Positions 23,052 to 36,332 of a stretch of 64,000 bases of DNA are shown piece after piece. Every line of letters starts with the position of its first letter. Position 1 is the stretch's first letter. The translations under genes were made by a program, and so were the position numbers. The notes beneath the pieces were generated by a model. It worked only from the letters and a program-made list of their open reading frames with translations. It was not told the origin of the DNA and did not search any database. Source of the stretch: a virus. The stretch lies in IMG/VR virus record IMGVR_UViG_3300024999_000072, positions 1 to 64,000 of that record. One strand, written 5' to 3'.

Positions 23052-23207
23052 TTGAGTATAGGGAAAGATAAGGTTAGGTCAAACCTGATCATAGAAAAGG
23101 ATATGAAGAAGGAATTGGAAGAAATAGCGAAGAGGCAGAACAGAAGTTTTAACAATCTTGTGATAACTATTCTTAAGGAGTACGTGGAAAAGAACGCCGA
23201 GGCTTGA
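23052..23207 (+). CDS. ribbon-helix-helix (Arc-like) repressor, 51 aa
   Basis: Not in ORF track: MSIGKDKVRSNLIIEKDMKKELEEIAKRQNRSFNNLVITILKEYV; GAGGTG RBS. Confidence 0.8.
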   Translation: MSIGKDKVRSNLIIEKDMKKELEEIAKRQNRSFNNLVITILKEYVEKNAEA

Positions 23208-23257
23208 GCCCTGGCGTTCTTCATTTTTTATGGGTAGCAACGAAAGGATGGCGAAAG

Positions 23258-23668
23258 ATGAACGCAAAAGAGTTAACTCTAAACACCTTTATCGCGGCAG
23301 TGGGAACAATTATAAGTGCATGTCTTGGAGGATGGGATGCCGCACTGAGGGTTTTAATTGGCCTCATGATCGTCGACTATGCAACTGGATTCTTGGGCGC
23401 AGTCAAGGATCACAAAGTAAACAGCGAGGTAATGTACTGGGGAGGACTTCGAAAGGCCGGAATCCTTGTTGTGTTAGGCATTGCCGTTCAACTTGATCAG
23501 ATGGTCGGCAACTCTGCACCGATTCTCCGGACGCTGGCAATTTACTTTTATGTGTCTAGGGAAGGCATTTCGGTGACGGAGAACTTGGGTATTCTCGGGG
23601 TGCCGCTACCGCCCGGTATTACCAAGGTGTTGACTCAATTACAAGAGAAAGGGGATGAAACGAAATGA
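23258..23668 (+). CDS. holin (Phage_holin_4 family)
   Basis: LGGWD, DYATG and EGISVTENL..LGVPLP motifs. Confidence 0.9.
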   Translation: MNAKELTLNTFIAAVGTIISACLGGWDAALRVLIGLMIVDYATGFLGAVKDHKVNSEVMYWGGLRKAGILVVLGIAVQLDQMVGNSAPILRTLAIYFYVSREGISVTENLGILGVPLPPGITKVLTQLQEKGDETK

Positions 23669-24480
23669 AAGCGGTAATTAATTACGGTCATGGGCGAAAA
23701 GACGTTGGGTATGATCCGGGAGCGGTCGGACCAACGGGATACCAAGAGGCTACCGAGAACCGTGAGGTTGGCGAGAAGGTAGTTGCAAAGCTGAAATCCA
23801 ACGGCTGGGATATACTCGCCATTCAAGATGGTGACCTAGACGATGTCACCGACCAATCGAACACTTACAAACCAAATGCCTTCCTCTCGATCCACGCCAA
23901 CTCCTTCGCTGATCCGGGTGCGCATGGGGTTGAAACCATAGCGCTCGGGCCTGGTGGGATGGGCGAGAAGATAGCCCGGGAGATCCAAAAGGAGTTAGTG
24001 GCAGCCACCGGACTCGCTGATCGAGGGGTGAAGTTTTCCAACCTGCACGTACTTAGGGAGACAAAGGGTTATCCTGCGGTTTTGGTGGAGATCGGCTTTA
24101 TTTCCAATCCGGAGGAAGAAGCGCTGATGAAGCAGGATACTTGGGATGAGATTGTAGCTTCGGCGTTATGCAGGGGGTTTAGCCGGGGTTCAGGAGTGCC
24201 TTATGTAGAGCGGATAGAGGGGGTAATAGGCGTGGGATTAGATGTAGCGGTTTTACTAAACACCAAGGAGGATTTCTGGGCGGGGGCTGACGTAGCTGCC
24301 AAGAATGGCAACTGTGCGGTGTTTGTGCGTGGTGAGGGTCGATCTGTTCCTGCCGAGGCTATGAGGGCCAAGCAGCTAATCATAGTTGGCGGGGCCACGA
24401 CCAAGCACCCGAACGAAGTGCTTCTCTCTGGGGAGACGAAGTTCGACACGGCTGAGGCGGTTGGGAAGTATTTGAGGTAG
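23665..24480 (+). CDS. endolysin, N-acetylmuramoyl-L-alanine amidase (Amidase_3) with a cell-wall-binding tail
   Basis: GHG..DPGA, SIHAN and LVEIGFISN motifs. Confidence 0.93.
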   Translation: MKAVINYGHGRKDVGYDPGAVGPTGYQEATENREVGEKVVAKLKSNGWDILAIQDGDLDDVTDQSNTYKPNAFLSIHANSFADPGAHGVETIALGPGGMGEKIAREIQKELVAATGLADRGVKFSNLHVLRETKGYPAVLVEIGFISNPEEEALMKQDTWDEIVASALCRGFSRGSGVPYVERIEGVIGVGLDVAVLLNTKEDFWAGADVAAKNGNCAVFVRGEGRSVPAEAMRAKQLIIVGGATTKHPNEVLLSGETKFDTAEAVGKYLR

Positions 24481-25383: not shown

Positions 25384-25417
25384 AAAGCCCCGGGTCGTAA
25401 TGACTCGGGGCTTTTTT
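25384..25417. terminator. bidirectional terminator
   Basis: AAAGCCCCGGGTC/GACTCGGGGCTTT hairpin between convergent units. Confidence 0.8.
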
Positions 25418-25425
25418 GCGTTTTA

Positions 25426-25587
25426 TCAGTTACTTTCCTTAAATAAATCAGGTTTGGCTTCAGCAAGTGCCTTAGCTCTCCTTAAGAACTCAATCTTAGT
25501 AATTCCGAGTTCCTTGCATACTTTTTCAAAGGATTCTTTTTCTTCCGGGAATACATCGAATCTAAGTACTACTTTGCCTTGTGCCAT
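25426..25587 (-). CDS. RHH-like regulator, 53 aa, last gene of the leftward operon
   Basis: Not in ORF track: MAQGKVVLRFDVFPEEKESFEKVCKELGITKIEFLRRA...; AGGAG RBS; overlaps the upstream stop codon. Confidence 0.7.
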   Translation of the reverse strand: MAQGKVVLRFDVFPEEKESFEKVCKELGITKIEFLRRAKALAEAKPDLFKESN

Positions 25588-26087
25588 TATAGATTATTCT
25601 CCTTCATGAATATTATTTTTGCACGTTCGAAATCGGAATCAACCTTATCTTTAGCCATCGGAGCTGCCTTAACCAGCATATTGACCACGTCTTTCTGTAG
25701 ATACCATGTAATTGGCTTGCTATGCGAATATTCCAGATTATCCCCGAACAGGTGCAGGTTTATGGTTTCCTGAGACGCAAGAGAAGAAATACACTTAACA
25801 TGGTCCTCGCGAGTGAGATTAAAAAACACTTCCATCTTGCATGGATCTCCTGGATAGTCATGGATCGTGATCGGCATCCGGATGAGGGGGAATCCGTTGA
25901 TTGAGTGTAATTCGACGCTTATTTCGATCTTGGCCGTTTTCATTTCTCGGGATTTGATCTCCTTGGTGGATAGGCGGACCAGAAGGTCTGTTTGCCAGTT
26001 TACGCCGTCCGCAGATGCGAAAGTAGGGAGACAACCGTAGCCGATTTTTCGGAAGGCTTGGATTTCGATGTAATTTAGCTCAATCAT
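25587..26087 (-). CDS. hypothetical protein
   Basis: AGGAGG RBS; coupled in the operon. Confidence 0.65.
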   Translation of the reverse strand: MIELNYIEIQAFRKIGYGCLPTFASADGVNWQTDLLVRLSTKEIKSREMKTAKIEISVELHSINGFPLIRMPITIHDYPGDPCKMEVFFNLTREDHVKCISSLASQETINLHLFGDNLEYSHSKPITWYLQKDVVNMLVKAAPMAKDKVDSDFERAKIIFMKENNL

Positions 26088-26094
26088 ATATATA

Positions 26095-26754
26095 TTACCT
26101 CCTAAAAACTCTATAACTCAAACCGTTCTTTGATATTTTTTCAAGCATTACGGATAGCCTTTTGTGATTCAACTCAGTTCCAACAAACTTCTTACCATTC
26201 TTTTGGGCGTTTATTCCAACTAATCCGCGCCCCATACAAAGGTCACCAATACAGATATAATCCTCATTCTTGCAAACCCACTCGATAATGTCCTCCTCGT
26301 CCATATAGTCAAGCGGGAGCTTTTTACGCTTTGCGCTGCCTCTAATAACGTAGCATAGATTTTCCTTTTTATGATAATAAGTGCTGTTATAAAATGTAAC
26401 GTGCTTATAAATAGTCTTCATTTCCTGTATAAACTCGCTTAAATACTCTTTCCCAACTTCAACATAACAGACTACCGGGTTTATTTCAGCGATGCACTCA
26501 AAGAGTCTTTTATAAAACGTTGTAAAGCTGTCTTGATAATCCTGTCGTTCCGCTTTTGTGTAGAATGTATTCAGGTTACCAAGGTTCCACGGTGGGTCTA
26601 CGAAAATTAAATCAGCAGGCCACATAATGCCCGGGAGGGGATCGAATATATTGTGAACCTTAACGGTGCTTCCGTCGTCGAAAATAGCGAATTGACCATC
26701 ACTAATGGGGTGACGAAGGTAAGCATCTCCATAGTTCCACTTAACCAACTTCAT
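26095..26754 (-). CDS. minimal beta-class amino-methyltransferase (N6A/N4C fold)
   Basis: Motif IV FVDPPW followed by motif I DLCMGRG...FVGTELN; little room for a TRD. Confidence 0.75.
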   Translation of the reverse strand: MKLVKWNYGDAYLRHPISDGQFAIFDDGSTVKVHNIFDPLPGIMWPADLIFVDPPWNLGNLNTFYTKAERQDYQDSFTTFYKRLFECIAEINPVVCYVEVGKEYLSEFIQEMKTIYKHVTFYNSTYYHKKENLCYVIRGSAKRKKLPLDYMDEEDIIEWVCKNEDYICIGDLCMGRGLVGINAQKNGKKFVGTELNHKRLSVMLEKISKNGLSYRVFRR

Positions 26755-27340
26755 CCACCTCAGTCATTTCCCAAGACTTTGAGTAGATCTGTTTTTTGAA
26801 TAGCTCAGCAATGCCTGTAATCTGCTTGAGCCTGAATACTTCCTCGATTTCCATGCCTAGCTTTTGTGCTACCTCTTCGTCAGGAACACCTTGCTCAATT
26901 AAGGCCTGCACTAGATCACCCATGAGTTCCACCTGATGCACTCCCCGGGCTCGGTTAAATTGGACGGTGGCCTCCATGCGTTGTGCTGGGGTAAGGTCTA
27001 GGACAATGATTGGAATTTCTTCTGCATCTAACCATATTTCCAGAATGCTGTCTCTATGGAAACCGTCTATAATAACGAACTTTTCCAAATCATCATCCCA
27101 TGCTGTAACGATCCCGAAACAAACTCCATTACTCAAGATGGATGTTTCTAAAAGTTCCATGTTGTTTCTTGGCACGCTGTTTGGATTGTAGTTATTAGCC
27201 TGAACGAGATCTCTCGGCACGATGATAGGGCACATAACAGGGAATGATATATCGCCTTTCTTTGTTTTTATTTTCGGAAAGTCTGGTATTTCGTAGACTC
27301 CGTATTTAGTAGCTATTCTTCTCACAGTAATTCCCTCCAT
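26741..27340 (-). CDS. ParB/Srx-domain + HTH protein (IbrB-like)
   Basis: ANNYNPN, IIDGFHR and T...NRARG.H motifs. Confidence 0.85.
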   Translation of the reverse strand: MEGITVRRIATKYGVYEIPDFPKIKTKKGDISFPVMCPIIVPRDLVQANNYNPNSVPRNNMELLETSILSNGVCFGIVTAWDDDLEKFVIIDGFHRDSILEIWLDAEEIPIIVLDLTPAQRMEATVQFNRARGVHQVELMGDLVQALIEQGVPDEEVAQKLGMEIEEVFRLKQITGIAELFKKQIYSKSWEMTEVDEVG

Positions 27341-28440
27341 TTCTTAATAGTGGCCTCCCTGGGATCTGGCTTGTTATCGATAGGGAGATTGTTCTCGTAG
27401 TCGTTCAGAACTAACTGACGGCACTGCTGGCGAGCAACATGGGGATTCGTGAGGTGTTTTCCGAAACGCTTTACGAAGATATCTTTCTTGGTTTCGTCCG
27501 GGTAGGTTTCAAGCAGGAAGTCTCTGTATTCTATCCACGTCTTGTAATTCTTCGGCAGTTTTTGAACTCTTAGCATCTTAGAATCTTTGCCGTACAGATT
27601 GCCAATACTGATACCCTTAACCCTTTTGAGCAACCGATTATAAGTACTAGGTTCAAACTCCGGCAACTCAACCAGCGCCTTGAAGGACTTCTCGTGGATT
27701 AAACTAGATACGCGGATTTCCTGTATCCCCATGCCCTTTTTGTACATATAGTCATAGATTTTCGAATACTTCAATTTTGTATCATAGATATATTTCCATA
27801 TATCATGGAAATTCCAATCATAGAGAGGATAGAAGGCAACGCTTCCGCGTTTCATCTTAGTGCACCAGAAAGTATTTTGGTACCCGGGATTCTTAGCGAC
27901 AGCTCGCCACCGGTTGGGGCTTTCCGTGGCGCGTAGGCCAACGAGAAAGGCTGTATTTTCGCGGGAGTTCTGAAAGTTTTCTAACGCATCATAAAACCCA
28001 AATCCTTTGTTTTTATCCCTGACGGTTTCCGTTTCTATGGGCCATGGTTTGTGCTGAATGGAACCGGTTTTCTTACTACGCATCCACAATTTGTGTTTGC
28101 CAGCTTCCCAGCATATGAGTTGGCCTTCCGTTAGACTCGTGGCGTTGGTGAGCTTAAATTCGATCTGTAGCCATAGCGGGATAGTGTTCTCAGGATACAG
28201 TTTCATGAGGTACTCAATCTGCTTAATTGTGCTGTCGTATACCACCTCTTCATCCAGAAAGAATATGCCGATCTTTCTTCCGCGTTTATTAGCCTCCAAG
28301 AGCGCTAAATGAACCAAGACCGTGCTATCCTTGCCGCCACTTATCGATACAACAATGTTCTCGAACTCGTCAAAAATGTACGACATCCTCTCCTTTGCCG
28401 AGACCAGTACCGACTTATTTATATAAACTTGCTTGAGCAT
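27322..28440 (-). CDS. PAPS-reductase-fold PP-loop protein (IbrA/DUF3440-like)
   Basis: SISGGKDS, LDEE, GLRATESPNR and YPLYDW motifs. Confidence 0.85.
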   Translation of the reverse strand: MLKQVYINKSVLVSAKERMSYIFDEFENIVVSISGGKDSTVLVHLALLEANKRGRKIGIFFLDEEVVYDSTIKQIEYLMKLYPENTIPLWLQIEFKLTNATSLTEGQLICWEAGKHKLWMRSKKTGSIQHKPWPIETETVRDKNKGFGFYDALENFQNSRENTAFLVGLRATESPNRWRAVAKNPGYQNTFWCTKMKRGSVAFYPLYDWNFHDIWKYIYDTKLKYSKIYDYMYKKGMGIQEIRVSSLIHEKSFKALVELPEFEPSTYNRLLKRVKGISIGNLYGKDSKMLRVQKLPKNYKTWIEYRDFLLETYPDETKKDIFVKRFGKHLTNPHVARQQCRQLVLNDYENNLPIDNKPDPREATIKKWRELL

Positions 28441-29290
28441 AGATTGAATCCAACCTCGCTTTCCACGTTACAAACTCGTTAACAATCACGGTGTCGATAG
28501 GTAGGGTGGTGCTTAGATATTTGATCTTGGCCATGCCAGTCGTTTTAATAAAATCGTTAAAACTTAGTCGCCGATAGTGAGTGTCAATAACAATGTATTT
28601 TCCTTGTTTATCTATTTCGTCATAGGTTTTGACGTTATCTAGCTTGAATCGCTTGTTTCTTGCGACGTATAACTCCTCAGGGATAATTGCACATTTCTTA
28701 AGATCACCAGCGAATAGTTGCAGGGACCTCGGTATAGTATCTGGGTCCTTATTACCCAAATTATCGAAGAGTTGGTCCCGTTTTTTCGCGTATTGCTCCT
28801 TATTTTTGTCAGTGATCTCAACGTTGATTGTTTCGATCTTGACGCGGAAGGGCTTAATCTTAATATCCTCAGCTTGCAAAAATACATAATCAAAGGACTT
28901 CCCTTTGTATTTGCCTTTATTATCAAAGTCCAATAAGATCATGAAATCGTTCTTATCGGAGATGATCGGGAAGAACTCAAAGATAATCTTATGTGGAGTC
29001 TGGTTAAGATAGTGGTGAGCACAGTTGTAGATCAACTCACTTCGGTTCGCGGTCCGCATGCAGCCATCCATAATGATAAGGCATGTATTATCTATCTCTT
29101 CAAGAAGTCGGTAGAAGAACTTATACATTTCGATGTCTGCGTACTCGATGTACTCGATGTCGATTGGTACGCTGTACTTGACCGGAAACTTCTTGAAGTA
29201 GAAACAATAGACTTTTTTGATGTCGGTTGCTTGCAGATATGCGTCGATTTCCTTTTGTTTCTCACGGCTGTTTAGGCCTATTCTGATCAT
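28415..29290 (-). CDS. hypothetical protein, possibly a degenerate helicase-like partner
   Basis: Translationally coupled to the SNF2 gene; LIIMD resembles an eroded Walker B; no Walker A. Confidence 0.6.
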   Translation of the reverse strand: MIRIGLNSREKQKEIDAYLQATDIKKVYCFYFKKFPVKYSVPIDIEYIEYADIEMYKFFYRLLEEIDNTCLIIMDGCMRTANRSELIYNCAHHYLNQTPHKIIFEFFPIISDKNDFMILLDFDNKGKYKGKSFDYVFLQAEDIKIKPFRVKIETINVEITDKNKEQYAKKRDQLFDNLGNKDPDTIPRSLQLFAGDLKKCAIIPEELYVARNKRFKLDNVKTYDEIDKQGKYIVIDTHYRRLSFNDFIKTTGMAKIKYLSTTLPIDTVIVNEFVTWKARLDSIYAQASLYK

Positions 29291-30699
29291 AAACCCTTAA
29301 TCAACTCCCTAAGTTTGTTTTTATCACCTTGAGACTTCTCCACCTCCTGGCGAAACGATGCGGCGGCATTCTCCTTGTTAGACAACGCTTTATTGATCCT
29401 ATCGTCAATACTTCCGGAACAATAAATATCGATGTAAGTTACGTCATGCTCCTGGCCTATGCGGTGGTCCCGGTCCTCGGCCTGTAAACGTTCAGAGTAC
29501 TTAAACCCGTTGTTGTAAAATATGACAAAGTGCGACTCATTCAAGGTTAGGCCGTGGCCGCCACAGCTCGGGGTTGACACAAAGAACCGCGCTGGTCCTC
29601 GGAATAGTCCAACTTGTGCGGGACGGTCCTTTTCCTTGATCCCTCCATGGAATTGTGAAACAGAATCCTCGCCGTACTTATCAGACAGAGCTTTTACTAT
29701 CCCGCGTATATCATACATAAACTTGGCCCAGACAATGATCTTCTTGCCCTCAGGGATATCCGCAACCGCATCCATAAATGTCTCCATCCGGTAATGTCGG
29801 AACTCGAATAACTTCATTTTGCCCTTAACGCGGTAATTCCAGAATCCACATACGATCTCCTGCAGGGCCGTAAACATGCGGAAGATAGAAGTCGAGTTAA
29901 AATCTTCGCGGTCCAATTCGGCTAGGAATTTCTCTTTGGCTAAGTGGTATTCGTGAGCTTGTTTATCAGTCATATGGAAATATCGTGTTTCGTAGAGTTT
30001 TTTAGGGAGATCAAGACATTCCTCTTTTGTAATTTGGTAGACATACGGCTTAGTTTTAGCGGCTAGGTATGCGGTGTTGTGGCTCCTCACAATCCGACCC
30101 GGGAACTTCTCGGAATACTCAAGGTGGTTGGCAGCAAAACTGTAGAAGGAGTTATACCCGAGGATCTTGGGCGAGAGAAAACGCATCTGTGCGTAAAGGT
30201 CTACAACACCTTGGGAGAGGGGAGTGCCGGTTAGAATTAGGCGATACCTTGAGCGCGCGCTCATGGCCGTGATCCGTGTCGTGCGCTTTGAGTCGTGGCC
30301 CTTAATATAGCTCGATTCGTCCAAGATAACGAACGTTTTAGCCGTGATTAGCTTATTCGCAGCCAAGACCATGCGTGTACTACTACTCATCGACTCGATG
30401 CCGATAATATACCACAACGCCTTCGGTATTGATCGCTCCCGCGTCTTGCTCCCAAAAACGTAGATATCGGCATCGGTGCAGTCGGTGTGCTTGAGTATCT
30501 CTTGCCGCACGGTTTCTTTGAGTGATACTGGACAAAAGTAAACAACCTTGTCTATCTTATGTTGGCGACGGTAAACAATTTCGAAGGTTGTTCTCGTTTT
30601 CCCTGTCCCCATGTCCATGAAGAGTCCGCCTATGGTAGTGGGAACCATTTTTTCTACAGCCGGTACTTGGTGGGGGAGAAGGTTAGTCTTTAAATTCAT
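29287..30699 (-). CDS. SNF2-family helicase/translocase
   Basis: MDMGTGKT, LDES, LTGTP, GLTL and QAEDR.HRIGQ motifs. Confidence 0.92.
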   Translation of the reverse strand: MNLKTNLLPHQVPAVEKMVPTTIGGLFMDMGTGKTRTTFEIVYRRQHKIDKVVYFCPVSLKETVRQEILKHTDCTDADIYVFGSKTRERSIPKALWYIIGIESMSSSTRMVLAANKLITAKTFVILDESSYIKGHDSKRTTRITAMSARSRYRLILTGTPLSQGVVDLYAQMRFLSPKILGYNSFYSFAANHLEYSEKFPGRIVRSHNTAYLAAKTKPYVYQITKEECLDLPKKLYETRYFHMTDKQAHEYHLAKEKFLAELDREDFNSTSIFRMFTALQEIVCGFWNYRVKGKMKLFEFRHYRMETFMDAVADIPEGKKIIVWAKFMYDIRGIVKALSDKYGEDSVSQFHGGIKEKDRPAQVGLFRGPARFFVSTPSCGGHGLTLNESHFVIFYNNGFKYSERLQAEDRDHRIGQEHDVTYIDIYCSGSIDDRINKALSNKENAAASFRQEVEKSQGDKNKLRELIKGL

Positions 30700-31843
30700 C
30701 CAACACCTCCGTATCGTCAGGTATTTCTAGCACTGGAGCCCTGCTTGTTACAACGGCATAATCCTTTTCTTTCGGCTCCATGGCGATGCCGATAATCGAG
30801 TTATTACGCACCTCCTCTGCTCTTGTGATAACATCCCTAGCTCCGCTCGAAATCTCAAACTTATACATCTCCGCAAAGTCTAGCACCTCCGCGAAGTGCT
30901 CAGGCGAAACGACTACATTCGGCTTATCGTATTTTGCACCAGTGATGGATTTAGCTCGTCGATACAGATTTTCGTCTCGCGACCACGAAATAACGAACCA
31001 TCCGAAGTATTTACCCTCTACTACACGAGATATCCACCGTGTACATTCTGGTTTGTAGTCGGCGTTAATTGCTCTCTCGCGGATCTCAGCGTCGAAGATC
31101 CGGATGGAGAACCCTGCGTATAGGAGTTTGTTTCCGGCTTCAGCAGCGCGGTCCTCAATGGTGCCATTCTTCATCCTTATTCTTCGTTTCCATGATCCTT
31201 CGGACCATACCATGTTTAGTTCTTTTTTCACAAGTTCGCGGAAACTATCTCGTTTCTCGGGGAATCTTATTTCTAGCAGATCGTCAAGGATGCGTATTTC
31301 TGCGACAGTCTCAGTTTTCGGATTCTCCGGCCGGACGGTGGCTTCCGCAAGAATATCCTTGACAACTTCCTTAGGCGGCATAATCTCTTCATGCTTGATC
31401 GTTTCTAATTCTGCGTTTAAAAGCTTCATGACCCCTAGTGAGTCCCTAACTAAAAACCGTCGATCTATCCACCAGTGGGCTCTTGTTTTTCCCGCCTTGA
31501 TGTGTTCGATCGCATCCCGCATATTGGCTTGGGTATCAATGTGCCCTAATCGCTTATCTGCCGCAACCGAATCCATGTATGAAAGCAGTTCTATCCTGAT
31601 TGATTCGGCCCACGGAATCTGCTTCTCTGTGCCGGTTAGTGCAGGGAGATTGTTATCCTTCGCGGCTTCGGCAGCTTCTCGGTTCGCCTCTTTGCGACGG
31701 CGTTGCAGATCGACTTGGTAGCATTCGGAGCAGAGCTTGTCGGCTTCGATGTGTTCTAATTTCCATTCGCAGTCCTTAGTTTTCCCGATCAGGGCCACGG
31801 TTTCCTCGTGGCCGCAGGAGCGGGTGACGGTGTAGTTAGCCAC
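30683..31843 (-). CDS. conserved phage protein (CGH...CxxC, LP.L.G.EKQI.WA..IR)
   Basis: Recognisable N-terminal motif; overlaps the SNF2 start. Confidence 0.75.
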   Translation of the reverse strand: MANYTVTRSCGHEETVALIGKTKDCEWKLEHIEADKLCSECYQVDLQRRRKEANREAAEAAKDNNLPALTGTEKQIPWAESIRIELLSYMDSVAADKRLGHIDTQANMRDAIEHIKAGKTRAHWWIDRRFLVRDSLGVMKLLNAELETIKHEEIMPPKEVVKDILAEATVRPENPKTETVAEIRILDDLLEIRFPEKRDSFRELVKKELNMVWSEGSWKRRIRMKNGTIEDRAAEAGNKLLYAGFSIRIFDAEIRERAINADYKPECTRWISRVVEGKYFGWFVISWSRDENLYRRAKSITGAKYDKPNVVVSPEHFAEVLDFAEMYKFEISSGARDVITRAEEVRNNSIIGIAMEPKEKDYAVVTSRAPVLEIPDDTEVLDEFKD

Positions 31844-32399
31844 TGCCCCACATCCAAGCCACAAACTTGTCAGCGTCCCATCCTAGCTCATCGCACGCGT
31901 CGAAGATGGAATCCATCCAGTCGGGATGATATTCATTACCTTCGCCAACGATCTTGTCAACTGACTTGAGATACTGAGCAAATGCTTCGCGTCCTTCTTT
32001 GCCTAACTCTACGAGCTCAGGGATCGACTTGAATTTTAGTATTTCGGACATCCAAAACTTTTTACGATAGATCTCTTCCATATCGCTTGGCTTTGCATAT
32101 ACCTCGACGTGATCATAATTTCCCTCGTTCACGATCTGGTTAAAAAATACGTCAACTTGCAACATCTGATCGCTAATCGTCATGTGAGGCGCAGGTGTAA
32201 CCTTAAAGCTAGAACCATGATCAGGCGCTACTCGCTTACTTGCCCACACTTGACTAATCTCATTATCCTTAATACGGATCTCAATAGAGAATTCACCGAA
32301 AGGATATTCTCCGGTTACGACAACTGCGTAACGACCGTGGCCGAACTTAAAGTTTTTTACTGCTTCAAACGCTTCGCTGGTTAGTTCTATTAGGTTCAT
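31836..32399 (-). CDS. hypothetical protein
   Basis: AAGGAGG RBS before MNLIELT; lies downstream of the ribozyme. Confidence 0.7.
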   Translation of the reverse strand: MNLIELTSEAFEAVKNFKFGHGRYAVVVTGEYPFGEFSIEIRIKDNEISQVWASKRVAPDHGSSFKVTPAPHMTISDQMLQVDVFFNQIVNEGNYDHVEVYAKPSDMEEIYRKKFWMSEILKFKSIPELVELGKEGREAFAQYLKSVDKIVGEGNEYHPDWMDSIFDACDELGWDADKFVAWMWGSG

Positions 32400-32427
32400 G
32401 GCTTCATCCTCCTTATTTCTGGGCCTA

Positions 32428-32492
32428 TAACCCTTGAGCGCCGCACCCTTTCGGGTGGTCCTGGCTTGCACAGGACTGGGCCTAGCGGGCTA
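32428..32492 (-). ncRNA. twister-sister self-cleaving ribozyme (three-way-junction type)
   Basis: Minus strand UAGCCC-GCUAGGCC-CA-GUCCUG-UGCAAGC-CAGGAC-CACCC-GAAA-GGGUG-C-GGCGCUCA-A-GGGUUA; all stems pair; conserved GCnAGGCC, UGCAAG and GGCGCUCA elements present. Confidence 0.88.
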
Positions 32493-32711
32493 GGAAATTT
32501 CAGGATACAATGTCTCGTTAATCATCTCCTGAAGCTTCTTCGCTTCAGGAATCATCCATTTCGGCGAATTTTTAGCCTGTTCTGAATCAGGCTCACATAT
32601 CGAATAGTGCTCCCCATCCCAATTCCGAATATAGACAGTAGGTGATCCCATAGATGTCCTGACCACTATTTCTGGCCCTAGCTCCCATTTACCGATTTCA
32701 ATTTTTTCCAT
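32490..32711 (-). CDS. hypothetical protein
   Basis: RBS after the repeated hairpin; its stop codon lies in ribozyme P1. Confidence 0.65.
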   Translation of the reverse strand: MEKIEIGKWELGPEIVVRTSMGSPTVYIRNWDGEHYSICEPDSEQAKNSPKWMIPEAKKLQEMINETLYPEIS

Positions 32712-32721
32712 TTCGTAACGC

Positions 32722-32747
32722 CCTTTCGCCGGATTGGCCCGGCTGGC
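32722..32747 (-). repeat. pre-RBS hairpin motif, copy 2
   Basis: GCCAGCCGGGCCAATCCGGCGAAAGG. Confidence 0.75.
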
Positions 32748-32754
32748 CTAATTC

Positions 32755-32964
32755 CTAAACTCCAAACATCGACCATTCTTCCTCGATTGCTACTGGCTGT
32801 AATCCACTCAGTACCTTTTCTCTAAGTATGCTTAATTTACTTTTCTCCATCAGCATGCTGTCAAATTTTTCGCGTCCCATTAATGCAACCTCATTGTTGA
32901 TTGTATCAAGTTTATCATTCAGTAGGTCCAGGACTGTTTTTAGATCATTTTTATTTAGTTCCAT
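32755..32964 (-). CDS. hypothetical protein, first gene of the leftward operon
   Basis: GAGGG RBS; follows a strong promoter. Confidence 0.65.
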   Translation of the reverse strand: MELNKNDLKTVLDLLNDKLDTINNEVALMGREKFDSMLMEKSKLSILREKVLSGLQPVAIEEEWSMFGV

Positions 32965-32999
32965 TTCATTCCCTCGCTCTCAACTCTTGATCTTAATTA

Positions 33000-33028
33000 A
33001 TTATACAGCACGTTACGTTATGCGTCAA
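33000..33028 (-). promoter_or_regulatory. strong sigma-A promoter with CGTAAC operator repeats
   Basis: TTGACG-N17-TATAAT; spacer contains TAACGTAACG; palindrome TTCGTAA-N4-TTACGAA at 33047-33064. Confidence 0.8.
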
Positions 33029-33101
33029 GGGATAAACAGGGGTATTTTCGTAATAATTTACGAATAAAAAAAGCCCCCACTTTCGTCAGGGACCAATAAT
33101 T

Positions 33102-33971
33102 TCACACCTTCGTCCGTGTTTTACCAAGTTCGAACTCGTGAATCCTTGCGGTCAAAGTCTGAATCCGATCTTGGAGAGTATCGATTTTGACCGTATATTC
33201 GTCTTTAAGTTTAGCTGTTGATTCGAGCACACGATTATTGGCATCGATCCCTGCCGCATGAATCTGCAGGTCAGCCATTTTTTGCATAGAGGCCAATTCG
33301 CCGGCATGAGTCTTTTCTCTGGTTGTAATAGCTTGCTCTTTGATTTCGATCACATGGAGATGTTGAGATGATTCTGTAATGAGTTTTTCGATTTGGCGCC
33401 GAGACTCTTTGCGCTGCGCCCTAAGCTCTTGTACTTCAGCTTCCATTTCAGCCACGGTCCCGATCCGCGCCTCCAAGGTTTCGTTTTGATTTGTTAGTAG
33501 CTCGATAGTTATACGATTAGATTTATTAACGGCTTCAAGCTCGCTATTTCTCTCAGAAAGCTCTTTGAGCTGATCCTGAATTTCGGCCAAATCCAACCGA
33601 GCTTTGTCGCGCTCAACTTCAGCATGAAGACGACTCTTATCTACCTGGTCGACAATTCCTTGATGCACTCGTTTTTCTTGATCGATGCTTTCTGTGAAGT
33701 TTTCCTTCAGGTCATGAAGTTTCTGGACCATGTTTGTAAAGATTGATTCGGCATGGGATAGGTGGTAACGAAGCTGCTGCATATCCTCGGTTTGCTCAGT
33801 GTCGCTACTGGCTAATAAATTCGTTTTGAATTGTGTAACCATGGCCGCGAATAGTTCTTTTTGGCTAAGGCCAGTTACTTTTAATAGCTCGCCCACAGAT
33901 TCAGTAATGTCACTTGTGGTTTTTACCGAGTATGTAGGCGGGACTGCCTTAATTTCCTTTTCATCCGACAT
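33102..33971 (-). CDS. long coiled-coil protein with a putative N-terminal DNA-binding region (KfrA-like architecture)
   Basis: Heptad-rich 289 aa; GGAGG RBS. Confidence 0.65.
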   Translation of the reverse strand: MSDEKEIKAVPPTYSVKTTSDITESVGELLKVTGLSQKELFAAMVTQFKTNLLASSDTEQTEDMQQLRYHLSHAESIFTNMVQKLHDLKENFTESIDQEKRVHQGIVDQVDKSRLHAEVERDKARLDLAEIQDQLKELSERNSELEAVNKSNRITIELLTNQNETLEARIGTVAEMEAEVQELRAQRKESRRQIEKLITESSQHLHVIEIKEQAITTREKTHAGELASMQKMADLQIHAAGIDANNRVLESTAKLKDEYTVKIDTLQDRIQTLTARIHEFELGKTRTKV

Positions 33972-34378: not shown

Positions 34379-35353
34379 TTAATCATTTTGCGATATTACG
34401 CTAATCGTATCGGTCTTATAATCTGATTTAGCCGTAACGTTTTGAAGGATTAATGCCCCGAAGGCATTTTTAGCCCTGTATGTCATCTTAACGATTAAGT
34501 GGTCGCCTTTATCCGAGTATGTCGTTTTTTCGTGATCGAAGCTCTTTGGGTCGTTCAGGTTCTTTTTGAGTAAATCTACCAGATGGGTATGCGATCCATC
34601 CCAAACGCTAAATTGCCCCTTAACCCATGTCTGGTATTGCTTTTGGGTATATAGTCTTTCAAAATCCTCCTTTACCTCAGCTTTCTCGGAATCTTTTAGA
34701 TGGTTGAAATATTTGTCTTCAATTTCGGCGAAATGCTTTAATTCATCTTCAGTAAATAATTTGTATTGGCTCATAATCAATAACGCCTTATCTGAGTCTG
34801 TAATCTTAGCTGCCTCAGCTTTTTCGCGAGCTATCTGCTCAGCGGTCTTCCCTGGTTGTGAAGCTGTCTTTGGCGATGTGGCATCTTCTCCTCCGACGAT
34901 ATTTCCGATCGCGCCAAATATAACTAGATAGCCCACGATAGCTACAGCCATTTTCCACTTAGTCTTCGACCGAAAACCTAAGATTTTATTCCACCATTTT
35001 CGAGGAATTTCCTCTAAGCGTATATTGGTATTTGCTGTAATTAAAGAAGCAACTTCTTTGCCTTTTTGGTTTACCTTTAATTCATAAGTCCTGGTATCGC
35101 TTTTTAGCATAAATACTGACTGAGTAAACAAATGGTCAACGGTTGCACTTGTCCAGTTCTCCCACTTATCTTCGGACAACTTACTGGCAGACCCGTTCTT
35201 AAAATCGTACTGCTCAAATCCCGTAGCCGAAAAGACTAAATATGAATTTGACTTACCTTGAACATTCGTGACAAGCGCCGGAAAGATTCCTAACTGATTT
35301 AAATAAATCTTAAATGCGTCTATCGGTTTTTGTTGCTTCTCTTTCTTTGCCAT
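34379..35353 (-). CDS. membrane-anchored moron protein
   Basis: Cytoplasmic N-domain, GFRSKTKWKM-TM, extracellular LNDPKSF...RAKNAFG domain. Confidence 0.75.
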   Translation of the reverse strand: MAKKEKQQKPIDAFKIYLNQLGIFPALVTNVQGKSNSYLVFSATGFEQYDFKNGSASKLSEDKWENWTSATVDHLFTQSVFMLKSDTRTYELKVNQKGKEVASLITANTNIRLEEIPRKWWNKILGFRSKTKWKMAVAIVGYLVIFGAIGNIVGGEDATSPKTASQPGKTAEQIAREKAEAAKITDSDKALLIMSQYKLFTEDELKHFAEIEDKYFNHLKDSEKAEVKEDFERLYTQKQYQTWVKGQFSVWDGSHTHLVDLLKKNLNDPKSFDHEKTTYSDKGDHLIVKMTYRAKNAFGALILQNVTAKSDYKTDTISVISQND

Positions 35354-35391
35354 TTAACACACTCTCCTAATCTTCGCATACAATTATATCT

Positions 35392-35416
35392 CTTCCTTAT
35401 AAGCCGGGCTATTCCT
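35392..35416 (-). promoter_or_regulatory. sigma-H-like promoter
   Basis: AGGAATAGCCCGGCTTATAAGGAAG; same AGG-N18-GAA spacing as the other copies. Confidence 0.5.
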
Positions 35417-35460
35417 GCAACTCGACAGGATTAATTGTTTTACGCTAAGTTTTGCAACGG

Positions 35461-36147
35461 TCACAACGCCAGCAACGGCAAGAGCTTCAACAACATCAGC
35501 GCAACTCCTCCGAGTATGAGTGTGTTCCCAACTGCCTTTGCGGCTTCCGGAGTGGGGGCAGGTGCAGGGACCTCATCCCTCGGATTAACAACCGATTCGA
35601 TATCAACGTCCGTGACCAAATGATTCTTCACAGTCCCGGCAAAGTCCTCAAAGTTGCGGTTATCCCTAAAATGTCTCCCGATCTCAACTGTGATTTCATC
35701 CGTCACCCCGTGATCCGGGTCAATCGTCCGTTTGTATTTAAAAACATCTTTGTCGTATCTACCGTTATTGAGTTGGCCTTTGATCTTATTCTTCAAGTAG
35801 TTACCTATCTTATTACCAACGTTATCCAACCTACTTGCATCCATTGTTCGTGGTATACCGATGGCTATTTGTTTTCCTTTGGCTATCCTTTCCCATGTTG
35901 ATAATGGTGCGTAACCCAGTGCTGGATGATCCTCTGACCAGAACATTCCGTTGAGGGAGATGGGGTTATTTTGTGGCATTGGATAGAGATAAAACGCGAA
36001 TGGGGAAGTGTTCAGATAGGCGCTAGGGGTTGTTGCTTGTGCCATGAAGGGGTTTGATAGGGAGATGCCAACTAGAATCATCAGCGTGGCAATGGCGAGT
36101 GTACGACGAACAGTAGACTTGCGCAGGACTAAGATCATATTAATCAA
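35461..36147 (-). CDS. exported protein with a signal peptide and C-terminal TM anchor
   Basis: Basic/hydrophobic N-terminus with AQA site; Pro-rich linker; C-terminal TM. Confidence 0.7.
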   Translation of the reverse strand: MINMILVLRKSTVRRTLAIATLMILVGISLSNPFMAQATTPSAYLNTSPFAFYLYPMPQNNPISLNGMFWSEDHPALGYAPLSTWERIAKGKQIAIGIPRTMDASRLDNVGNKIGNYLKNKIKGQLNNGRYDKDVFKYKRTIDPDHGVTDEITVEIGRHFRDNRNFEDFAGTVKNHLVTDVDIESVVNPRDEVPAPAPTPEAAKAVGNTLILGGVALMLLKLLPLLAL

Positions 36148-36331
36148 CCTCCAATTTTGCCTTTAATTCTTCTAGGGATTTCAGAAGTTTCTCTATAGTT
36201 TCCCTATCTGGTGGGGAAATCCTCAAAAGAGTATTCAACTTGGCAAACATTACAATCATCTTCCAATACCATATTTCGGCAGTAATCCTACTCTTAATCA
36301 CCCCGACAATTGGTTTTTTCACGCGAAACAC
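36140..36331 (-). CDS. hypothetical protein
   Basis: Coupled between the M23 gene and the exported-protein gene. Confidence 0.55.
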   Translation of the reverse strand: MFRVKKPIVGVIKSRITAEIWYWKMIVMFAKLNTLLRISPPDRETIEKLLKSLEELKAKLEVD

Positions 36332-36332
36332 C

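What the first reader, a model, noticed from the sequence alone, without database searches (positions are those of the whole stretch)
25426..33064. Repressor-terminated operon with SNF2 helicase, IbrA/IbrB-like pair and minimal MTase: candidate DNA-modification or anti-defence system
Seen: one near-consensus sigma-A promoter drives 11 genes. The core genes overlap: conserved phage protein, SNF2, helicase-like remnant, PP-loop PAPS-reductase-fold protein, ParB/Srx-HTH protein and a DPPW amino-MTase with almost no TRD. The operon ends in an RHH gene. Established: PAPS-reductase-fold enzymes (DndC/SspD) adenylate DNA in phosphorothioation, ParB/Srx domains bind or hydrolyse NTPs, and IbrAB were described only as prophage gene co-activators. 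Inference: a translocase-driven, low-specificity DNA or nucleotide modification machine, expressed as a burst on entry until the last-gene repressor accumulates. It could protect incoming phage DNA or act as a prophage-borne defence.
Basis: partly seen in the sequence, partly recalled or inferred. Interest (0 to 1): 0.8.

Follow-up and report, generated by a model that had tools for sequence, protein, structure and literature searches.

The report
Phage SNF2–IbrAB–methylase DNA-marking cassette
A temperate phage carries a tightly conserved six-gene block (a DNA motor, two helper proteins, an ATP-using IbrA enzyme, a ParB-like IbrB switch and a very small methylase) that most likely puts a chemical mark on DNA, but the mark and its purpose have never been measured.

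Summary
On the minus strand, a TTGACG-17-TATAAT promoter (33028-33000) lies between two terminators and precedes 11 ORFs. All domain calls were reproduced. The "helicase-like remnant" is a real two-lobe SNF2-like fold that has lost its ATPase motifs.

New here:
- Six genes (Zn-ribbon protein g4, SNF2, pseudo-helicase g6, IbrA, IbrB, small DPPW methylase) form a colinear cassette. It recurs in all 29 related loci fetched wherever the contig reaches, even at 32-42% g6 identity.
- Natural fusions (g4+SNF2+g6, SNF2+g6, and one SNF2+g6+IbrA) tie the parts together.
- The other five genes, including the putative RHH "repressor", are not conserved.
- IbrA has an invariant PP-loop but no invariant cysteine and no desulfurase partner, so Dnd/Ssp-type phosphorothioation is unlikely. 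Its nearest solved relatives include the adenylyltransferases FAD synthase and CysD.
- IbrA-IbrB pairs, often with SNF2 or a methylase, also occur in virulent phages, frequently beside the terminase.
- No PADLOC defence system matches.

Best reading (about 0.45): a translocase-delivered DNA-modification machine that serves the phage's own DNA. Rivals are prophage-borne defence, transcriptional co-activation, and a non-DNA substrate. No paper found describes the cassette. Interest is moderate to high.

The parts
33072..33094 (-). terminator-like hairpin with a T-run. It ends the upstream gene (33102-33971) and insulates the cassette.
   Evidence: sequence read
33047..33064 (.). perfect palindrome TTCGTAA-N4-TTACGAA, 19 nt upstream of the -35 hexamer. 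Candidate operator; its binder is unknown.
   Evidence: It is the only exact copy in the window; 0.30 matches are expected with up to 2 mismatches.
33000..33028 (-). sigma-70/sigma-A-type promoter TTGACG-17-TATAAT (11 of 12). Its -10 hexamer ends 35 nt before the g1 ATG.
   Evidence: sequence
32755..32964 (-). g1, 69 aa, no family, not conserved in related loci
32490..32711 (-). g2, 73 aa, no family, not conserved
31836..32471 (-). g3, 211 aa, no family. Only two weak C-terminal matches (L008, L013).
30683..31843 (-). g4, 386 aa from the GTG start used by the database copy P0121 (the longest ORF starts at 31864). It has an N-terminal Zn-ribbon (C10, H12, C38, C41), a helical region, two small alpha/beta domains and an acidic C-terminal tail. 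It acts as an accessory subunit of the SNF2 motor.
   Evidence: Fused to SNF2+g6 in P0244.
29287..30699 (-). g5, 470-aa minimal SNF2 ATPase. Motifs I (GTGKT), II (DESS), III (TGTP) and VI (QAEDRDHRIGQ) are intact.
28415..29290 (-). g6, 291-aa degenerate two-RecA-lobe SF2/SNF2-like protein with no Walker A or DExx motif (a pseudo-helicase). It probably acts as the adaptor between SNF2 and IbrA.
   Evidence: Fusions.
27322..28440 (-). g7, IbrA/YbdN-like PP-loop ATP pyrophosphatase (PAPS_reduct + DUF3440). SGGKDS is invariant and no cysteine is conserved.
26741..27340 (-). g8, IbrB/YbdM-like ParB/Srx-fold protein. The DGxHR and NRARG motifs are invariant.
26095..26754 (-). g9, 219-aa beta-class amino-methyltransferase. 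Motif IV (DPPW) comes before motif I (DLCMGRG), and the usual target-recognition segment is missing.
25587..26087 (-). g10, 166 aa, no family, not conserved (one 24% match in L041)
25426..25587 (-). g11, 53 aa, possible ribbon-helix-helix protein. Overlaps g10 by 1 nt. Not conserved.
   Evidence: NikA-like E 0.0092, below cut-off
25384..25414 (.). bidirectional terminator hairpin (14 pairs) shared with the convergent plus-strand gene that ends at 25376

Best explanation
The conserved core (g4 to g9, 30.7-26.1 kb) is a phage-encoded, NTP-driven machine that covalently modifies double-stranded DNA for the phage's own benefit. The benefit would be protecting or marking phage DNA against host restriction, possibly coupled to replication or packaging.

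Proposed mechanism:
1. Motor module. The SNF2 ATPase g5, its Zn-ribbon/DNA-binding accessory g4 and the ATPase-dead SNF2-like adaptor g6 load on DNA and translocate.
2. Chemistry module. This module rides on the motor. IbrB (ParB/Srx fold) acts as an NTP-gated DNA clamp or switch. IbrA (PP-loop) uses ATP to adenylylate an oxygen on DNA: a phosphate, or a base carbonyl. This either activates the site for substitution or leaves the mark itself. The methylase has no target-recognition domain and gets its DNA access from its partners. It methylates exocyclic amino groups with low sequence specificity.

Shown: gene content, folds, motif conservation, co-conservation and fusions.
Inferred: that DNA is IbrA's substrate, the chemistry, the physical complex, and the biological benefit.

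The flanking genes g1-g3, g10 and g11 are lineage-specific add-ons.
For: 1. Co-conservation. g6-IbrA-ParB-MTase are colinear in 4 of 4 genome loci. In the 11 viral loci, 10 carry all four genes; L013 is cut inside ParB. In 14 loci found with distant g6 relatives (32-42% identity), 12 carry all four; L042 and L052 are cut by contig ends. g4+SNF2 lie upstream in 4/4, 9/11 and 11/14 of these sets.
2. Fusions. P0244 (1144 aa) is g4-like + SNF2 + g6. P0252 and P0256 are SNF2 + g6. P0391 is SNF2 C-part + g6 + IbrA.
3. Every enzyme keeps its catalytic motifs across homologues.
4. g6 is an SNF2-like fold without ATPase motifs.
5. The IbrA family profile is nearest to the adenylyltransferases FAD synthase (6.4e-9) and CysD (7.9e-8), and to PAPS reductases.
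6. IbrB is nearest to the CTP-switch proteins Noc and ParB. ParB-fold proteins bind CTP, ATP or GTP, and their fusions to N6/N4 methylases are enriched in phages (PMC12704722, passages). g8 itself matches the ParB part of the ParB-methylase family phrog_498.
7. Precedents for a ParB-like NTPase paired with a DNA-modifying enzyme are DpdB/DpdA and DndB/DndC (PMC12839542, passages).
8. IbrA occurs in 223 phage records. In the 10 lineages inspected, an IbrB-type ParB is adjacent in 9, an SNF2 in 3 and an annotated methylase in 3. The block often sits next to the terminase. One of these phages, FCL-2, has no integrase, repressor or detected lysogeny (PMC4541368).
9. Phage ParB-terminase loci with methylases were already predicted to modify phage DNA during packaging (PMC4738411, passages).
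10. There is no nuclease or other effector domain, and no PADLOC system matches.
Against: - No experiment or read-level data bear on this. No RNA run was listed.
- DNA as IbrA's substrate is inferred only from its partners.
- The PDB matches of IbrA cover short conserved stretches of 35-57 residues.
- The methylase matches are weak: PF01555 clears its cut-off by only 2 bits, and the best solved relative, DpnA, is at E 0.0016.
- Here the cassette sits between the lysis genes and the integrase end, antisense to the late genes, with its own promoter and terminators. That is the classic position of genes expressed from a prophage, which fits a host-directed or defence role as well.
- The only phenotype attached to IbrA/IbrB in annotation is 'co-activator of prophage gene expression'.
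- E. coli K-12 keeps a chromosomal ybdN-ybdM pair without SNF2 or a methylase, so the pair has a function that needs neither.
- P0391 rests on one contig and could be a gene-calling artefact across overlapping genes.
Confidence: 0.45

Rival explanations
1. Prophage-borne anti-phage or anti-plasmid defence of the BREX, DISARM or Dpd kind. The lysogen expresses the cassette from its own promoter. The methylase and IbrA mark resident DNA. SNF2, g4, g6 and the ParB-like 'nuclease domain' protein then act on unmarked incoming DNA.
For: - The cassette occupies a moron-like position between the lysis genes and the integrase end, with its own promoter and flanking terminators.
- The SNF2 matches ZorD, DpdE and DrmD models at the domain level (1.5e-32, 9.1e-25 and 1.3e-9).
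- SNF2 plus methylase plus a PP-loop enzyme echoes DISARM and type 4 BREX.
- The distribution is sporadic: DUF3440 was found in 5 of 401 genomes of one phylum.
Against: - No complete PADLOC system matches and there is no recognisable effector (nuclease, PLD, PglZ).
- The SNF2 is a bare 470-aa core without the nuclease or extra domains of ZorD or DpdE.
- The IbrA-IbrB(+SNF2) core also sits in phages with no sign of lysogeny and next to terminase genes.
- A methylase without a target-recognition domain is poorly suited to telling self from non-self.
Confidence: 0.17
2. A transcription or nucleoid-remodelling module. [quoted passage not shown] IbrB would bind DNA, and SNF2 would act like RapA or a remodeller to displace silencers or RNA polymerase. 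The cassette would switch on phage or host genes rather than protect DNA.
For: - The annotation strings for IbrA/IbrB.
- The SNF2's second-tier NCBIfam match is to a 'pilus expression-regulating Snf2 family helicase' (4.9e-12, far below cut-off).
- g6 and SNF2 resemble remodellers and the poxvirus transcription ATPase in fold.
- One BFVD neighbour of g4 is labelled HepA-related (7.6e-4).
Against: - A PP-loop enzyme and an amino-methyltransferase, both with strictly conserved catalytic motifs, are not needed for remodelling alone.
- Activation of genes could itself be a consequence of DNA modification.
- The primary paper on IbrAB was not in the searchable library and was not read.
Confidence: 0.13
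3. The chemistry module acts on something other than DNA: a nucleotide, a cofactor, tRNA or a protein. Examples would be making or destroying a signalling or defence-related nucleotide. In this reading SNF2 and ParB only localise or regulate it.
For: - The nearest solved relatives of IbrA act on small molecules: FMN, sulfate and PAPS.
- ParB/Srx-fold enzymes include small-molecule kinases such as SbnI.
- In Microbacterium phage Hendrix the IbrA homologue sits with a glycosyltransferase, a methyltransferase and an acetyltransferase and has no ParB beside it.
- Locus L040 adds a second PAPS_reduct protein and a weak GNAT match.
Against: - IbrA is fused in one case to SNF2+g6, and is linked almost without exception to DNA-binding and DNA-translocating partners.
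- The methylase belongs to the DNA N6/N4 family.
Confidence: 0.1

Closest known systems
IbrA/IbrB of E. coli (paralogues YbdN/YbdM in K-12)
   Same: Same two families and the same arrangement. A PAPS_reduct+DUF3440 gene is followed by an overlapping ParB-like gene. The window's IbrA is 26% identical to YbdN, with all PP-loop and family-invariant residues shared.
   Different: The E. coli pairs stand alone, without SNF2, g4, g6 or a methylase. Their biochemical activity is unknown. The only label is 'co-activator of prophage gene expression' (annotation seen; the original paper was not read).
Dnd / Ssp DNA phosphorothioation (DndC or SspD PP-loop enzyme, DndB ParB-like protein)
   Same: A PAPS-reductase-fold ATP pyrophosphatase is paired with a ParB/Srx-fold protein in a DNA-modification context (PMC12839542, passages). 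There are weak DndC hits (3.2e-8 in PADLOC).
   Different: There is no cysteine desulfurase, no DndD/E or SspB/C, and no invariant cysteine or Fe-S motif in the IbrA family. TIGR03183 scores 22 bits against a cut-off of 290. Sulfur insertion is therefore unlikely.
Dpd 7-deazaguanine system (DpdA transglycosylase + DpdB ParB-like ATPase; SNF2-like DpdE/J)
   Same: A ParB-like NTPase powers a DNA-modifying enzyme, and SNF2-type helicases sit in the same island. The SNF2 matches DpdE models (9.1e-25).
   Different: There is no TGT-like DpdA, no DpdC and no preQ0 genes. The modifying enzyme here is a PP-loop protein plus a methylase.
Phage ParB-methyltransferase fusions and 'ParB-terminase large subunit' loci
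   Same: A ParB fold is coupled to an N6/N4 methylase in phages and prophages. [quoted passage not shown] Relatives of this cassette do sit beside the terminase (L053; Phlyer and Salgado; FCL-2).
   Different: ParB and the methylase are separate genes here. IbrA, SNF2, g4 and g6 are added. In this window the cassette is more than 23 kb from the terminase. The passages read in those papers do not mention PAPS reductase or SNF2 (0 occurrences).
CysD/CysN ATP sulfurylase
   Same: CysD is among the closest solved relatives of IbrA (5.3e-5; 7.9e-8). A PP-loop adenylyltransferase driven by a separate NTPase is a useful analogy for IbrA+IbrB. That CysN is the GTPase partner is recalled, not taken from a call.
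   Different: The NTPase here has a ParB/Srx fold, not a translation-factor GTPase fold. All NCBIfam CysD and CysH models score far below cut-off. Nothing links the cassette to sulfate assimilation.
DISARM / BREX type 4
   Same: The combination of an SNF2-like helicase, a methylase and (in BREX-4) a PAPS-reductase-fold BrxP.
   Different: There are only domain-level hits: DrmD 1.3e-9 and BrxP 1.2e-4. DrmA/B/C, PglZ, BrxC and BrxL are all absent.

Membership tests
IbrA/YbdN family (PAPS_reduct + DUF3440) | N-terminal PAPS-reductase/PP-loop domain followed by DUF3440, both above Pfam cut-offs | tested here: met
   PF01507 scores 63.4 bits (cut-off 22.5). PF11922 scores 45.3 bits (cut-off 25). 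The genome-level search gives 46.3 bits, over the cut-off.
IbrA/YbdN family (PAPS_reduct + DUF3440) | PP-loop SGGKDS and the family-invariant residues shared with E. coli YbdN | tested here: met
   Alignment A3 covers 12 sequences from this window to E. coli and actinophages. S34-S39, D63, E65, R170, E173, S174, R177, D208 and W209 are invariant.
IbrA-IbrB gene pair | an adjacent, usually overlapping ParB/Srx-fold gene | tested here: met
   19-nt overlap in the window. 28-nt overlap of ybdN/ybdM. Adjacent in 9 of 10 phage lineages.
DndC / SspD (DNA phosphorothioation sulfurtransferase) | score above the curated model cut-off | tested here: not met
   TIGR03183 scores 22.2 bits against a cut-off of 290.4. 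PADLOC DndC matches only residues 161-223.
DndC / SspD (DNA phosphorothioation sulfurtransferase) | conserved cysteines (DndC-specific dyad or Fe-S ligands) and a cysteine desulfurase partner | tested here: not met
   No invariant Cys in A3. No desulfurase domain in any of the 11 operon proteins or the upstream gene. The feature is as described in PMC12839542.
CysH-type PAPS/APS reductase | curated model score; catalytic C-terminal cysteine (the cysteine motif is recalled, not from a call) | tested here: not met
   NF002537 scores 38.6 against 154. TIGR02057 scores 29.6 against 254. No conserved Cys.
SNF2 family ATPase | SNF2-related N-lobe plus Helicase_C, with intact motifs I, II, III and VI | tested here: met
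   PF00176 80.1 bits and PF00271 34.5 bits. The motifs were read in the translation. All but one of 13 sequences keep them, and that row is a fragment.
SF2/SNF2 helicase (for g6) | two RecA-like lobes | tested here: met
   AF2 pLDDT 81, pTM 0.77. Z 15.3 to CSB (281 aligned, rmsd 4.2). SNF2-family ATPase cores fill ranks 1-20.
SF2/SNF2 helicase (for g6) | Walker A (GxxxxGK[ST]) and DExx motifs needed for ATP hydrolysis | tested here: not met
   Neither motif is present in the sequence or in the family consensus. The only relics are G5...K11 and 'NEC'.
ParB/Srx (ParB-CTPase) fold | fold-level similarity plus DGxHR and the arginine-rich Box-II-like motif | tested here: met
   phrog_2159 at 1.1e-45. 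Profile A7 hits Noc at 1.2e-4 and ParB at 9.9e-4. D92, G93, H95, R96, N129, A131, R132 and G133 are invariant.
Canonical partition ParB (Spo0J/ParB) | curated model score; partner ParA | tested here: not met
   TIGR00180 scores 16.1 bits against a cut-off of 58.45. There is no ParA in the operon.
Beta-class N6/N4 DNA amino-methyltransferase (PF01555) | model above cut-off; motif IV (D/N/S)PP(Y/F/W) before motif I | tested here: met
   28.7 bits against a cut-off of 26.7. D53 and P55 are invariant and W56 is in at least 90% of sequences. D171, G175 and G177 of motif I are invariant. The nearest solved relatives are DpnA, CcrM and MboIIA, weakly.
Sequence-specific R-M methyltransferase | a target-recognition domain between the two halves of the catalytic domain | tested here: inconclusive
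   Query residues 48-164 map to PF01555 positions 2-108. Residues 154-209 map to positions 201-254 of a 260-position type II MTase model. About 90 profile positions therefore have no counterpart. No structure was predicted for g9.
Known anti-phage defence systems (PADLOC-DB v2.0.0) | a full set of system-specific components | tested here: not met
   Only generic hits were found: SNF2 domain (ZorD, DpdE, DrmD), PP-loop (DndC, BrxP) and MTase. g1-g4, g6, g8, g10 and g11 gave none.
Ribbon-helix-helix repressor (for g11) | match to an RHH family model | tested here: inconclusive
   NikA-like PF21983 at E 0.0092, 16.5 bits against a cut-off of 27. No PHROG, NCBIfam or PADLOC hit.
Phage ParB-terminase (Tls) locus (PMC4738411) | ParB and methylase genes adjacent to the terminase large subunit | tested here: not met
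   In this window the terminase is at 561-2300, more than 23 kb from the cassette. The feature is met in relatives L053, Phlyer, Salgado and FCL-2.

The most novel reading that the evidence does not exclude
IbrA-IbrB is the core of an undescribed, sulfur-independent DNA-modification chemistry that is widespread in phages. A ParB-fold NTP switch gates a PP-loop enzyme that adenylylates DNA, either at a backbone or terminal phosphate or at a base carbonyl. The adenylate is either the final mark or is displaced to give a new base or backbone derivative. The TRD-less DPPW methylase then methylates that product. An SNF2 motor with a dedicated pseudo-helicase adaptor spreads the reaction along the genome. 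If this is right, many 'viral PAPS reductase / CysH' genes now read as sulfur-metabolism auxiliary genes are really DNA-modification enzymes.
Probability: 0.17. Interest if true: 0.85.

Novelty: new variant of a known kind. Interest (0 to 1): 0.62.

Why it matters
IbrA/IbrB-type pairs occur in at least 223 sequenced phages of very different hosts, in E. coli K-12 and in many prophages. They have no known biochemical activity. They are routinely annotated either as 'prophage co-activators' or as sulfur-metabolism genes.

This cassette is the most complete version seen here. It supplies concrete, testable partners: a motor, an adaptor and a methylase. It also narrows the chemistry to adenylyl transfer and away from thiol or Fe-S chemistry.

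If the system modifies DNA, three things follow. It would add a new entry to the list of phage genome modifications that defeat restriction. It would explain a widespread gene pair. It would also offer a translocase-coupled, low-specificity DNA-marking tool. If it proves to be a defence or regulatory system instead, the same gene set defines a new one.

Tried and rejected
- **Complex prediction (IbrA alignment A4 + g6 alignment A1 as partner).** The job was never accepted. The queue was full or the machine gave no answer. No binding test exists.
- **The look-up of sequencing runs.** Four DNA runs from one study were listed and no RNA holder. Read laying was not used, so nothing can be said on expression.
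- **Sequence searches against the phage collection.** blastn of the whole operon found no match. tblastn of g6 found no match.
- **Protein Atlas.** g3 gave no usable hit. g10 gave only unnamed clusters at 0.90 or below.
- **g4 fold.** Foldseek against the PDB found nothing at E <= 0.001. VIA-wide gave a best Z of 6.2, and Z 5.0-5.3 to the UvsW and XPB N-terminal domains. This is below the level the tool calls meaningful, so the likeness to helicase-associated DNA-binding domains is only a lead.
- **Distant g6 relatives.** Three single-protein scans replaced it.
- **Possible g6 equivalents elsewhere.** hhalign of the g6 profile against the 334-aa gene upstream of IbrA in L039 gave probability 0.9% and E 0.059, which is inconclusive. 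Against Gaia gp102 it showed no relation.
- **MTases next to IbrB in Salgado, PBC5 and M2.** These are not BLAST-similar to g9.
- **Phosphorothioation.** Considered and rejected; see Membership tests.
- **Cassette as cargo of a separate conjugative element.** An FtsK/SpoIIIE-like gene, a peptidase and membrane proteins lie at 34-39 kb, which raised this idea. It was not pursued. Related phages L006 and L008 carry the cassette without that block in the stretches scanned.
- **Literature.** Seven searches found no description of this cassette or of an IbrA/IbrB mechanism. One search was a malformed query. Subscription-only papers could not be searched, including the original IbrAB paper and earlier comparative-genomics papers on DNA-modification systems. 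The supplements of PMC4738411 and PMC12704722 were not opened and may list such gene neighbourhoods.

Full report
**Setting**

The window is the first 64 kb of an 82.6-kb IMG/VR virus record, classed as linear with CheckV completeness 85%. PHROG scans give the following layout:
- terminase large subunit at 561, then portal, capsid and tape-measure genes;
- a tyrosine recombinase at 20912-21916 (-);
- holin and endolysin at 23204-24480;
- a long minus-strand block from 25.4 to 42.6 kb, ending in an integrase (41233-42273) and a repressor-like HTH gene (42280-42624);
- plus-strand early and replication genes running to the end of the record, where a small-terminase-like gene lies.

The record is therefore a circularly permuted temperate phage. 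The finding occupies the segment between the lysis genes and the integrase end, antisense to the late genes.

**Observation**

Eleven minus-strand ORFs fill 32964-25426. The best promoter-like site in the 9.7 kb scanned is TTGACG-17-TATAAT at 33028-33000. It sits between a terminator-like hairpin (33094-33072) and the first ORF. A 14-pair bidirectional hairpin closes the block at 25384-25414. The overall number of promoter-like sites is not above shuffled expectation (17 against 17.1), so the promoter is plausible rather than proven. A weaker site (10 of 12) lies inside IbrA at 27666-27637.

Six consecutive genes overlap by 4-26 nt (g4/SNF2 17, SNF2/g6 4, g6/IbrA 26, IbrA/ParB 19, ParB/MTase 14). 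This suggests translational coupling.

- SNF2 (PF00176 1.9e-22; Helicase_C).
- PAPS_reduct + DUF3440 (3.5e-17; 1.1e-11).
- A ParB-like protein with no Pfam hit but phrog_2159 at 1.1e-45.
- An N6/N4 methylase just over its cut-off (28.7 against 26.7 bits).
- A possible RHH, supported only by a sub-threshold NikA-like match (E 0.0092).

**The 'helicase-like remnant' (g6)**

g6 has no sequence family, but it has 444 close relatives and 199 cluster representatives, all unnamed. An AF2 model (pLDDT 81, pTM 0.77) aligns over 281 of 291 residues with SNF2-family ATPase cores: CSB Z 15.3 (rmsd 4.2), SWR1 15.2 and INO80 15.1. Remodellers fill the top 20 rows, and Foldseek agrees (ISW1 at 9.4e-5).

The sequence and the family consensus lack Walker A and DExx motifs. 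g6 is therefore a compact SNF2-like fold that has lost its ATPase motifs, while keeping its own strongly conserved residues. The adjacent g5 keeps all SNF2 motifs.

**g4**

The real start is probably the GTG giving 386 aa, as in P0121. g4 has an invariant Zn-ribbon (C10, G11, C38, C41, with H12 nearly invariant), a helical region, two small alpha/beta domains and a conserved acidic tail. Its model has pLDDT 83.8 and pTM 0.50.

It has no solid PDB neighbour. The best match is Z 6.2. The two alpha/beta domains weakly resemble the N-terminal domains of the UvsW and XPB helicases (Z 5.0-5.3), which is only a lead. In BFVD it matches uncharacterised phage proteins (5.4e-9) and one protein labelled HepA-related (7.6e-4).

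**Co-conservation**

Starting from g6, I fetched three sets of loci.
- *Four genome loci.* Pelotomaculum, a Clostridium sp., and two MAG contigs labelled Babeliales and Paceibacterota. All four carry g4-SNF2-g6-IbrA-ParB-MTase in this order.
- *Eleven IMG/VR loci.*
  - g6 and IbrA are present in 11 of 11, and ParB in 11 of 11 (L013 is cut inside it).
  - The MTase is present in 10 of 11.
  - SNF2 is present in 11 of 11, though L015 has only a 94-residue fragment.
  - g4 is present in 9 of 11: L014 starts inside SNF2, and L015 lacks g4.
- *Fourteen loci from three distant g6 relatives.* These are 32-42% identical to the window's g6, except L051 at 60%. L043 and L050 have identical scores.
  - g6-IbrA is present in 14 of 14.
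  - ParB is present in 13 of 14, and the MTase in 12 of 14. The misses are contig ends in L042 and L052.
  - g4+SNF2 are present in 11 of 14.

The three loci without SNF2 have the following upstream instead:
- L040: a second PAPS_reduct protein, plus a weak GNAT match between ParB and the MTase.
- L045: an IS1595 transposase and another methylase.
- L053: a GpA-type terminase followed by two unknown ORFs.

IbrA is the most conserved gene (59-90% identity to the window). SNF2 and g4 are the least conserved (36-82% and 31-60%). None of g1, g2 or g11 has a tblastn match in any of the 29 loci. g3 has two weak partial matches and g10 has one. For proteins as short as 53-73 aa, this test is not sensitive.

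**Fusions**

Among g6 relatives:
- P0244 (1144 aa) is g4-like (32% identity over 333 residues, E 4e-34) + SNF2 + g6.
- P0252 and P0256 are SNF2 + g6.

A search for long IbrA relatives found two proteins:
- P0391 (1015 aa) is an SNF2 C-part + g6 (41% identity, E 6e-75) + IbrA (65% identity). It rests on a single contig, so a gene-calling artefact across overlapping genes cannot be excluded.
- P0392 is an IbrA interrupted by an intein.

The fusions argue that g4, SNF2 and g6 act as one unit, and that g6 links that unit to IbrA.

**The chemistry module**

*IbrA.* An alignment of 12 IbrA homologues, from this window to E. coli YbdN and actinophage proteins (22-75% identity), keeps SGGKDS and 19 other residues invariant, but no cysteine. 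All curated CysH, CysD and DndC models score far below cut-off. No desulfurase is present. A family profile is closest, over short conserved stretches, to FAD synthase (6.4e-9), CysD (7.9e-8) and PAPS reductases (5.5e-7). This favours plain ATP-dependent adenylyl transfer to an oxygen over thiol or Fe-S chemistry. It argues against the Dnd/Ssp analogy, whose DndC-specific cysteine dyad is noted in PMC12839542 (passages).

*IbrB.* DGxHR and an arginine-bearing NRARG motif are invariant. The nearest natural solved relatives are Noc (1.2e-4), ParB (9.9e-4) and SbnI. The higher-ranked hits to designed repeat proteins are composition artefacts.

*The methylase.* DPPW and motif I are conserved in 20 homologues. 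Its two halves map to the two ends of longer MTase models, with about 90 model positions missing between them. Its nearest solved relatives are small beta-class adenine methylases, weakly (DpnA 0.0016).

**Wider distribution of the IbrA-IbrB core**

IbrA-like proteins occur in 223 phage records, all below 60% identity: Flavobacterium 90, Mycobacterium 60, Streptococcus 21, Arthrobacter 12, Bacillus 8 and others. I inspected ten lineages (tblastn).
- An IbrB-type ParB is adjacent in 9. The exception, Hendrix, has IbrA at the very end of the record.
- A g5-like SNF2 is adjacent in 3 (FCL-2, PYS40, AQ113).
- An annotated methylase is adjacent in 3 (Salgado, PBC5, M2).
- The block lies next to the terminase in Phlyer, Salgado and FCL-2, or just after the lysis genes in the Streptococcus and Lactobacillus phages.
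- FCL-2 shows no integrase, repressor or lysogeny (PMC4541368, passages).

E. coli K-12 has the overlapping pair ybdN-ybdM alone (PMC9068703).

In 401 genomes of the phylum of the Pelotomaculum host, DUF3440 was found in 5. Four of these have a g5-like SNF2 beside it, three have a g9-like methylase, and one has g6.

**Interpretation**

The evidence shows a modular system with three layers:
- a nearly universal IbrA-IbrB pair;
- a frequent SNF2 partner;
- in this Clostridia-type phage lineage, a fixed six-gene form with g4, g6 and a minimal methylase.

The parts are a dsDNA translocase, a DNA-clamp-type NTP switch, an ATP pyrophosphatase and an amino-methylase that lacks its own DNA-recognition segment. 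They fit a machine that moves along DNA and modifies it with little sequence specificity.

Three observations make self-modification (anti-restriction or packaging-linked marking) more likely than host defence. The core occurs in phages with no sign of lysogeny and next to packaging genes. There is no effector nuclease. No PADLOC system matches.

This agrees with earlier computational predictions for phage ParB-methylase loci (PMC4738411; PMC12704722). The passages I read in those papers do not mention IbrA-type enzymes or SNF2.

Against this reading, nothing demonstrates DNA as IbrA's substrate. In this phage the cassette's position and its own promoter would equally suit a lysogen-expressed function. 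The only phenotype attached to the family name is gene activation.

I put the main reading at about 0.45, defence at 0.17, a transcription or remodelling role at 0.13 and a non-DNA substrate at 0.10. The remainder is unassigned.

**The regulatory idea**

A perfect palindrome, TTCGTAA-N4-TTACGAA, lies 19 nt upstream of the -35 hexamer and is unique in the window. It is a reasonable operator candidate. Nothing connects it to g11, whose RHH nature is itself only weakly supported. The g10-g11 pair overlaps by 1 nt and is absent from relatives, so it could as well be an independent two-gene module. The 'burst until the repressor accumulates' model is therefore untested speculation.

**Novelty**

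Seven literature searches and the passages read gave only annotation-level mentions of IbrA/IbrB, with no mechanism and no description of this cassette. Subscription-only papers and the supplements of the two most relevant papers were not seen.

I file the finding as a new variant of a known kind: phage DNA-modification or ParB-methylase loci built around the uncharacterised IbrAB pair. There is a modest chance that the chemistry itself is new.

Noticed in passing
window 59625-61986 (+): A second, different PAPS-reductase-fold protein (491 aa; phrog_424 at 2.5e-29) lies directly upstream of a Dam-family adenine methylase (phrog_56 at 2.8e-69; TIGR00571 at 3.7e-20, below cut-off). Both sit in the replication module, just before a replication initiator at 62061. 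The phage thus carries two separate pairings of a PP-loop enzyme with a methylase.
   Followed up: partly
window 34379-39175 (-): Between the cassette and the integrase lie several genes that look like a DNA-transfer or conjugation-type module. They are an FtsK/SpoIIIE-like ATPase (37811-39175), an M23-type peptidase (36333-37010), a membrane or secreted protein (35461-36147) and a phrog_3403 protein (34379-35353). L007 has FtsK, a replication initiator and the phrog_3403 homologue next to its cassette. L016 has an FtsK-like gene just downstream.
   Followed up: partly
window 20912-21916 (-); L006 2589-3416; L007 15755-16582: A tyrosine recombinase (phrog_1) sits between the tail-fibre genes and the lysis genes. 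It is additional to the integrase at 41233-42273, and is conserved in the two related phages. It could be a tail-fibre switching or dimer-resolution function.
   Followed up: no
P0392 (653 aa, relative of g7): An IbrA homologue is interrupted by an intein (Intein_splicing at 1.5e-8) between its PAPS_reduct and DUF3440 parts.
   Followed up: no
L003 / L010 and L005: Contigs deposited as MAGs of 'Candidatus Babeliales' and 'Candidatus Paceibacterota' carry this Firmicutes-type phage cassette at 54-77% identity. The Babeliales contig has the same length (70494) as an IMG/VR viral contig. These are probably phage contigs binned into those MAGs.
   Followed up: no
L040 4931-10871: A variant cassette. 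A second PAPS_reduct protein (260 aa, 8.7e-20) directly precedes g6 in place of SNF2. A small ORF and a weak GNAT acetyltransferase match (2.2e-4) are inserted between ParB and the methylase.
   Followed up: partly
L038 (G313) 1075-6294: A five-gene form, g4-SNF2-IbrA-ParB-MTase, with no g6. SNF2 ends 36 nt before IbrA. g6 is therefore not indispensable in every lineage.
   Followed up: partly
window 25426-26087 (-): g10 (166 aa, no family) and the 53-aa RHH-like g11 overlap by one base and are absent from related cassettes. The pair could be an independent two-gene module (for example toxin-antitoxin-like) rather than the operon's regulator.
   Followed up: no
L027 1883-4099 (record 65883-68099): A radical-SAM protein (phrog_9298 at 2.1e-77) is followed by a transposase (phrog_5749 at 4.6e-86), among the early genes of the same phage.
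   Followed up: no
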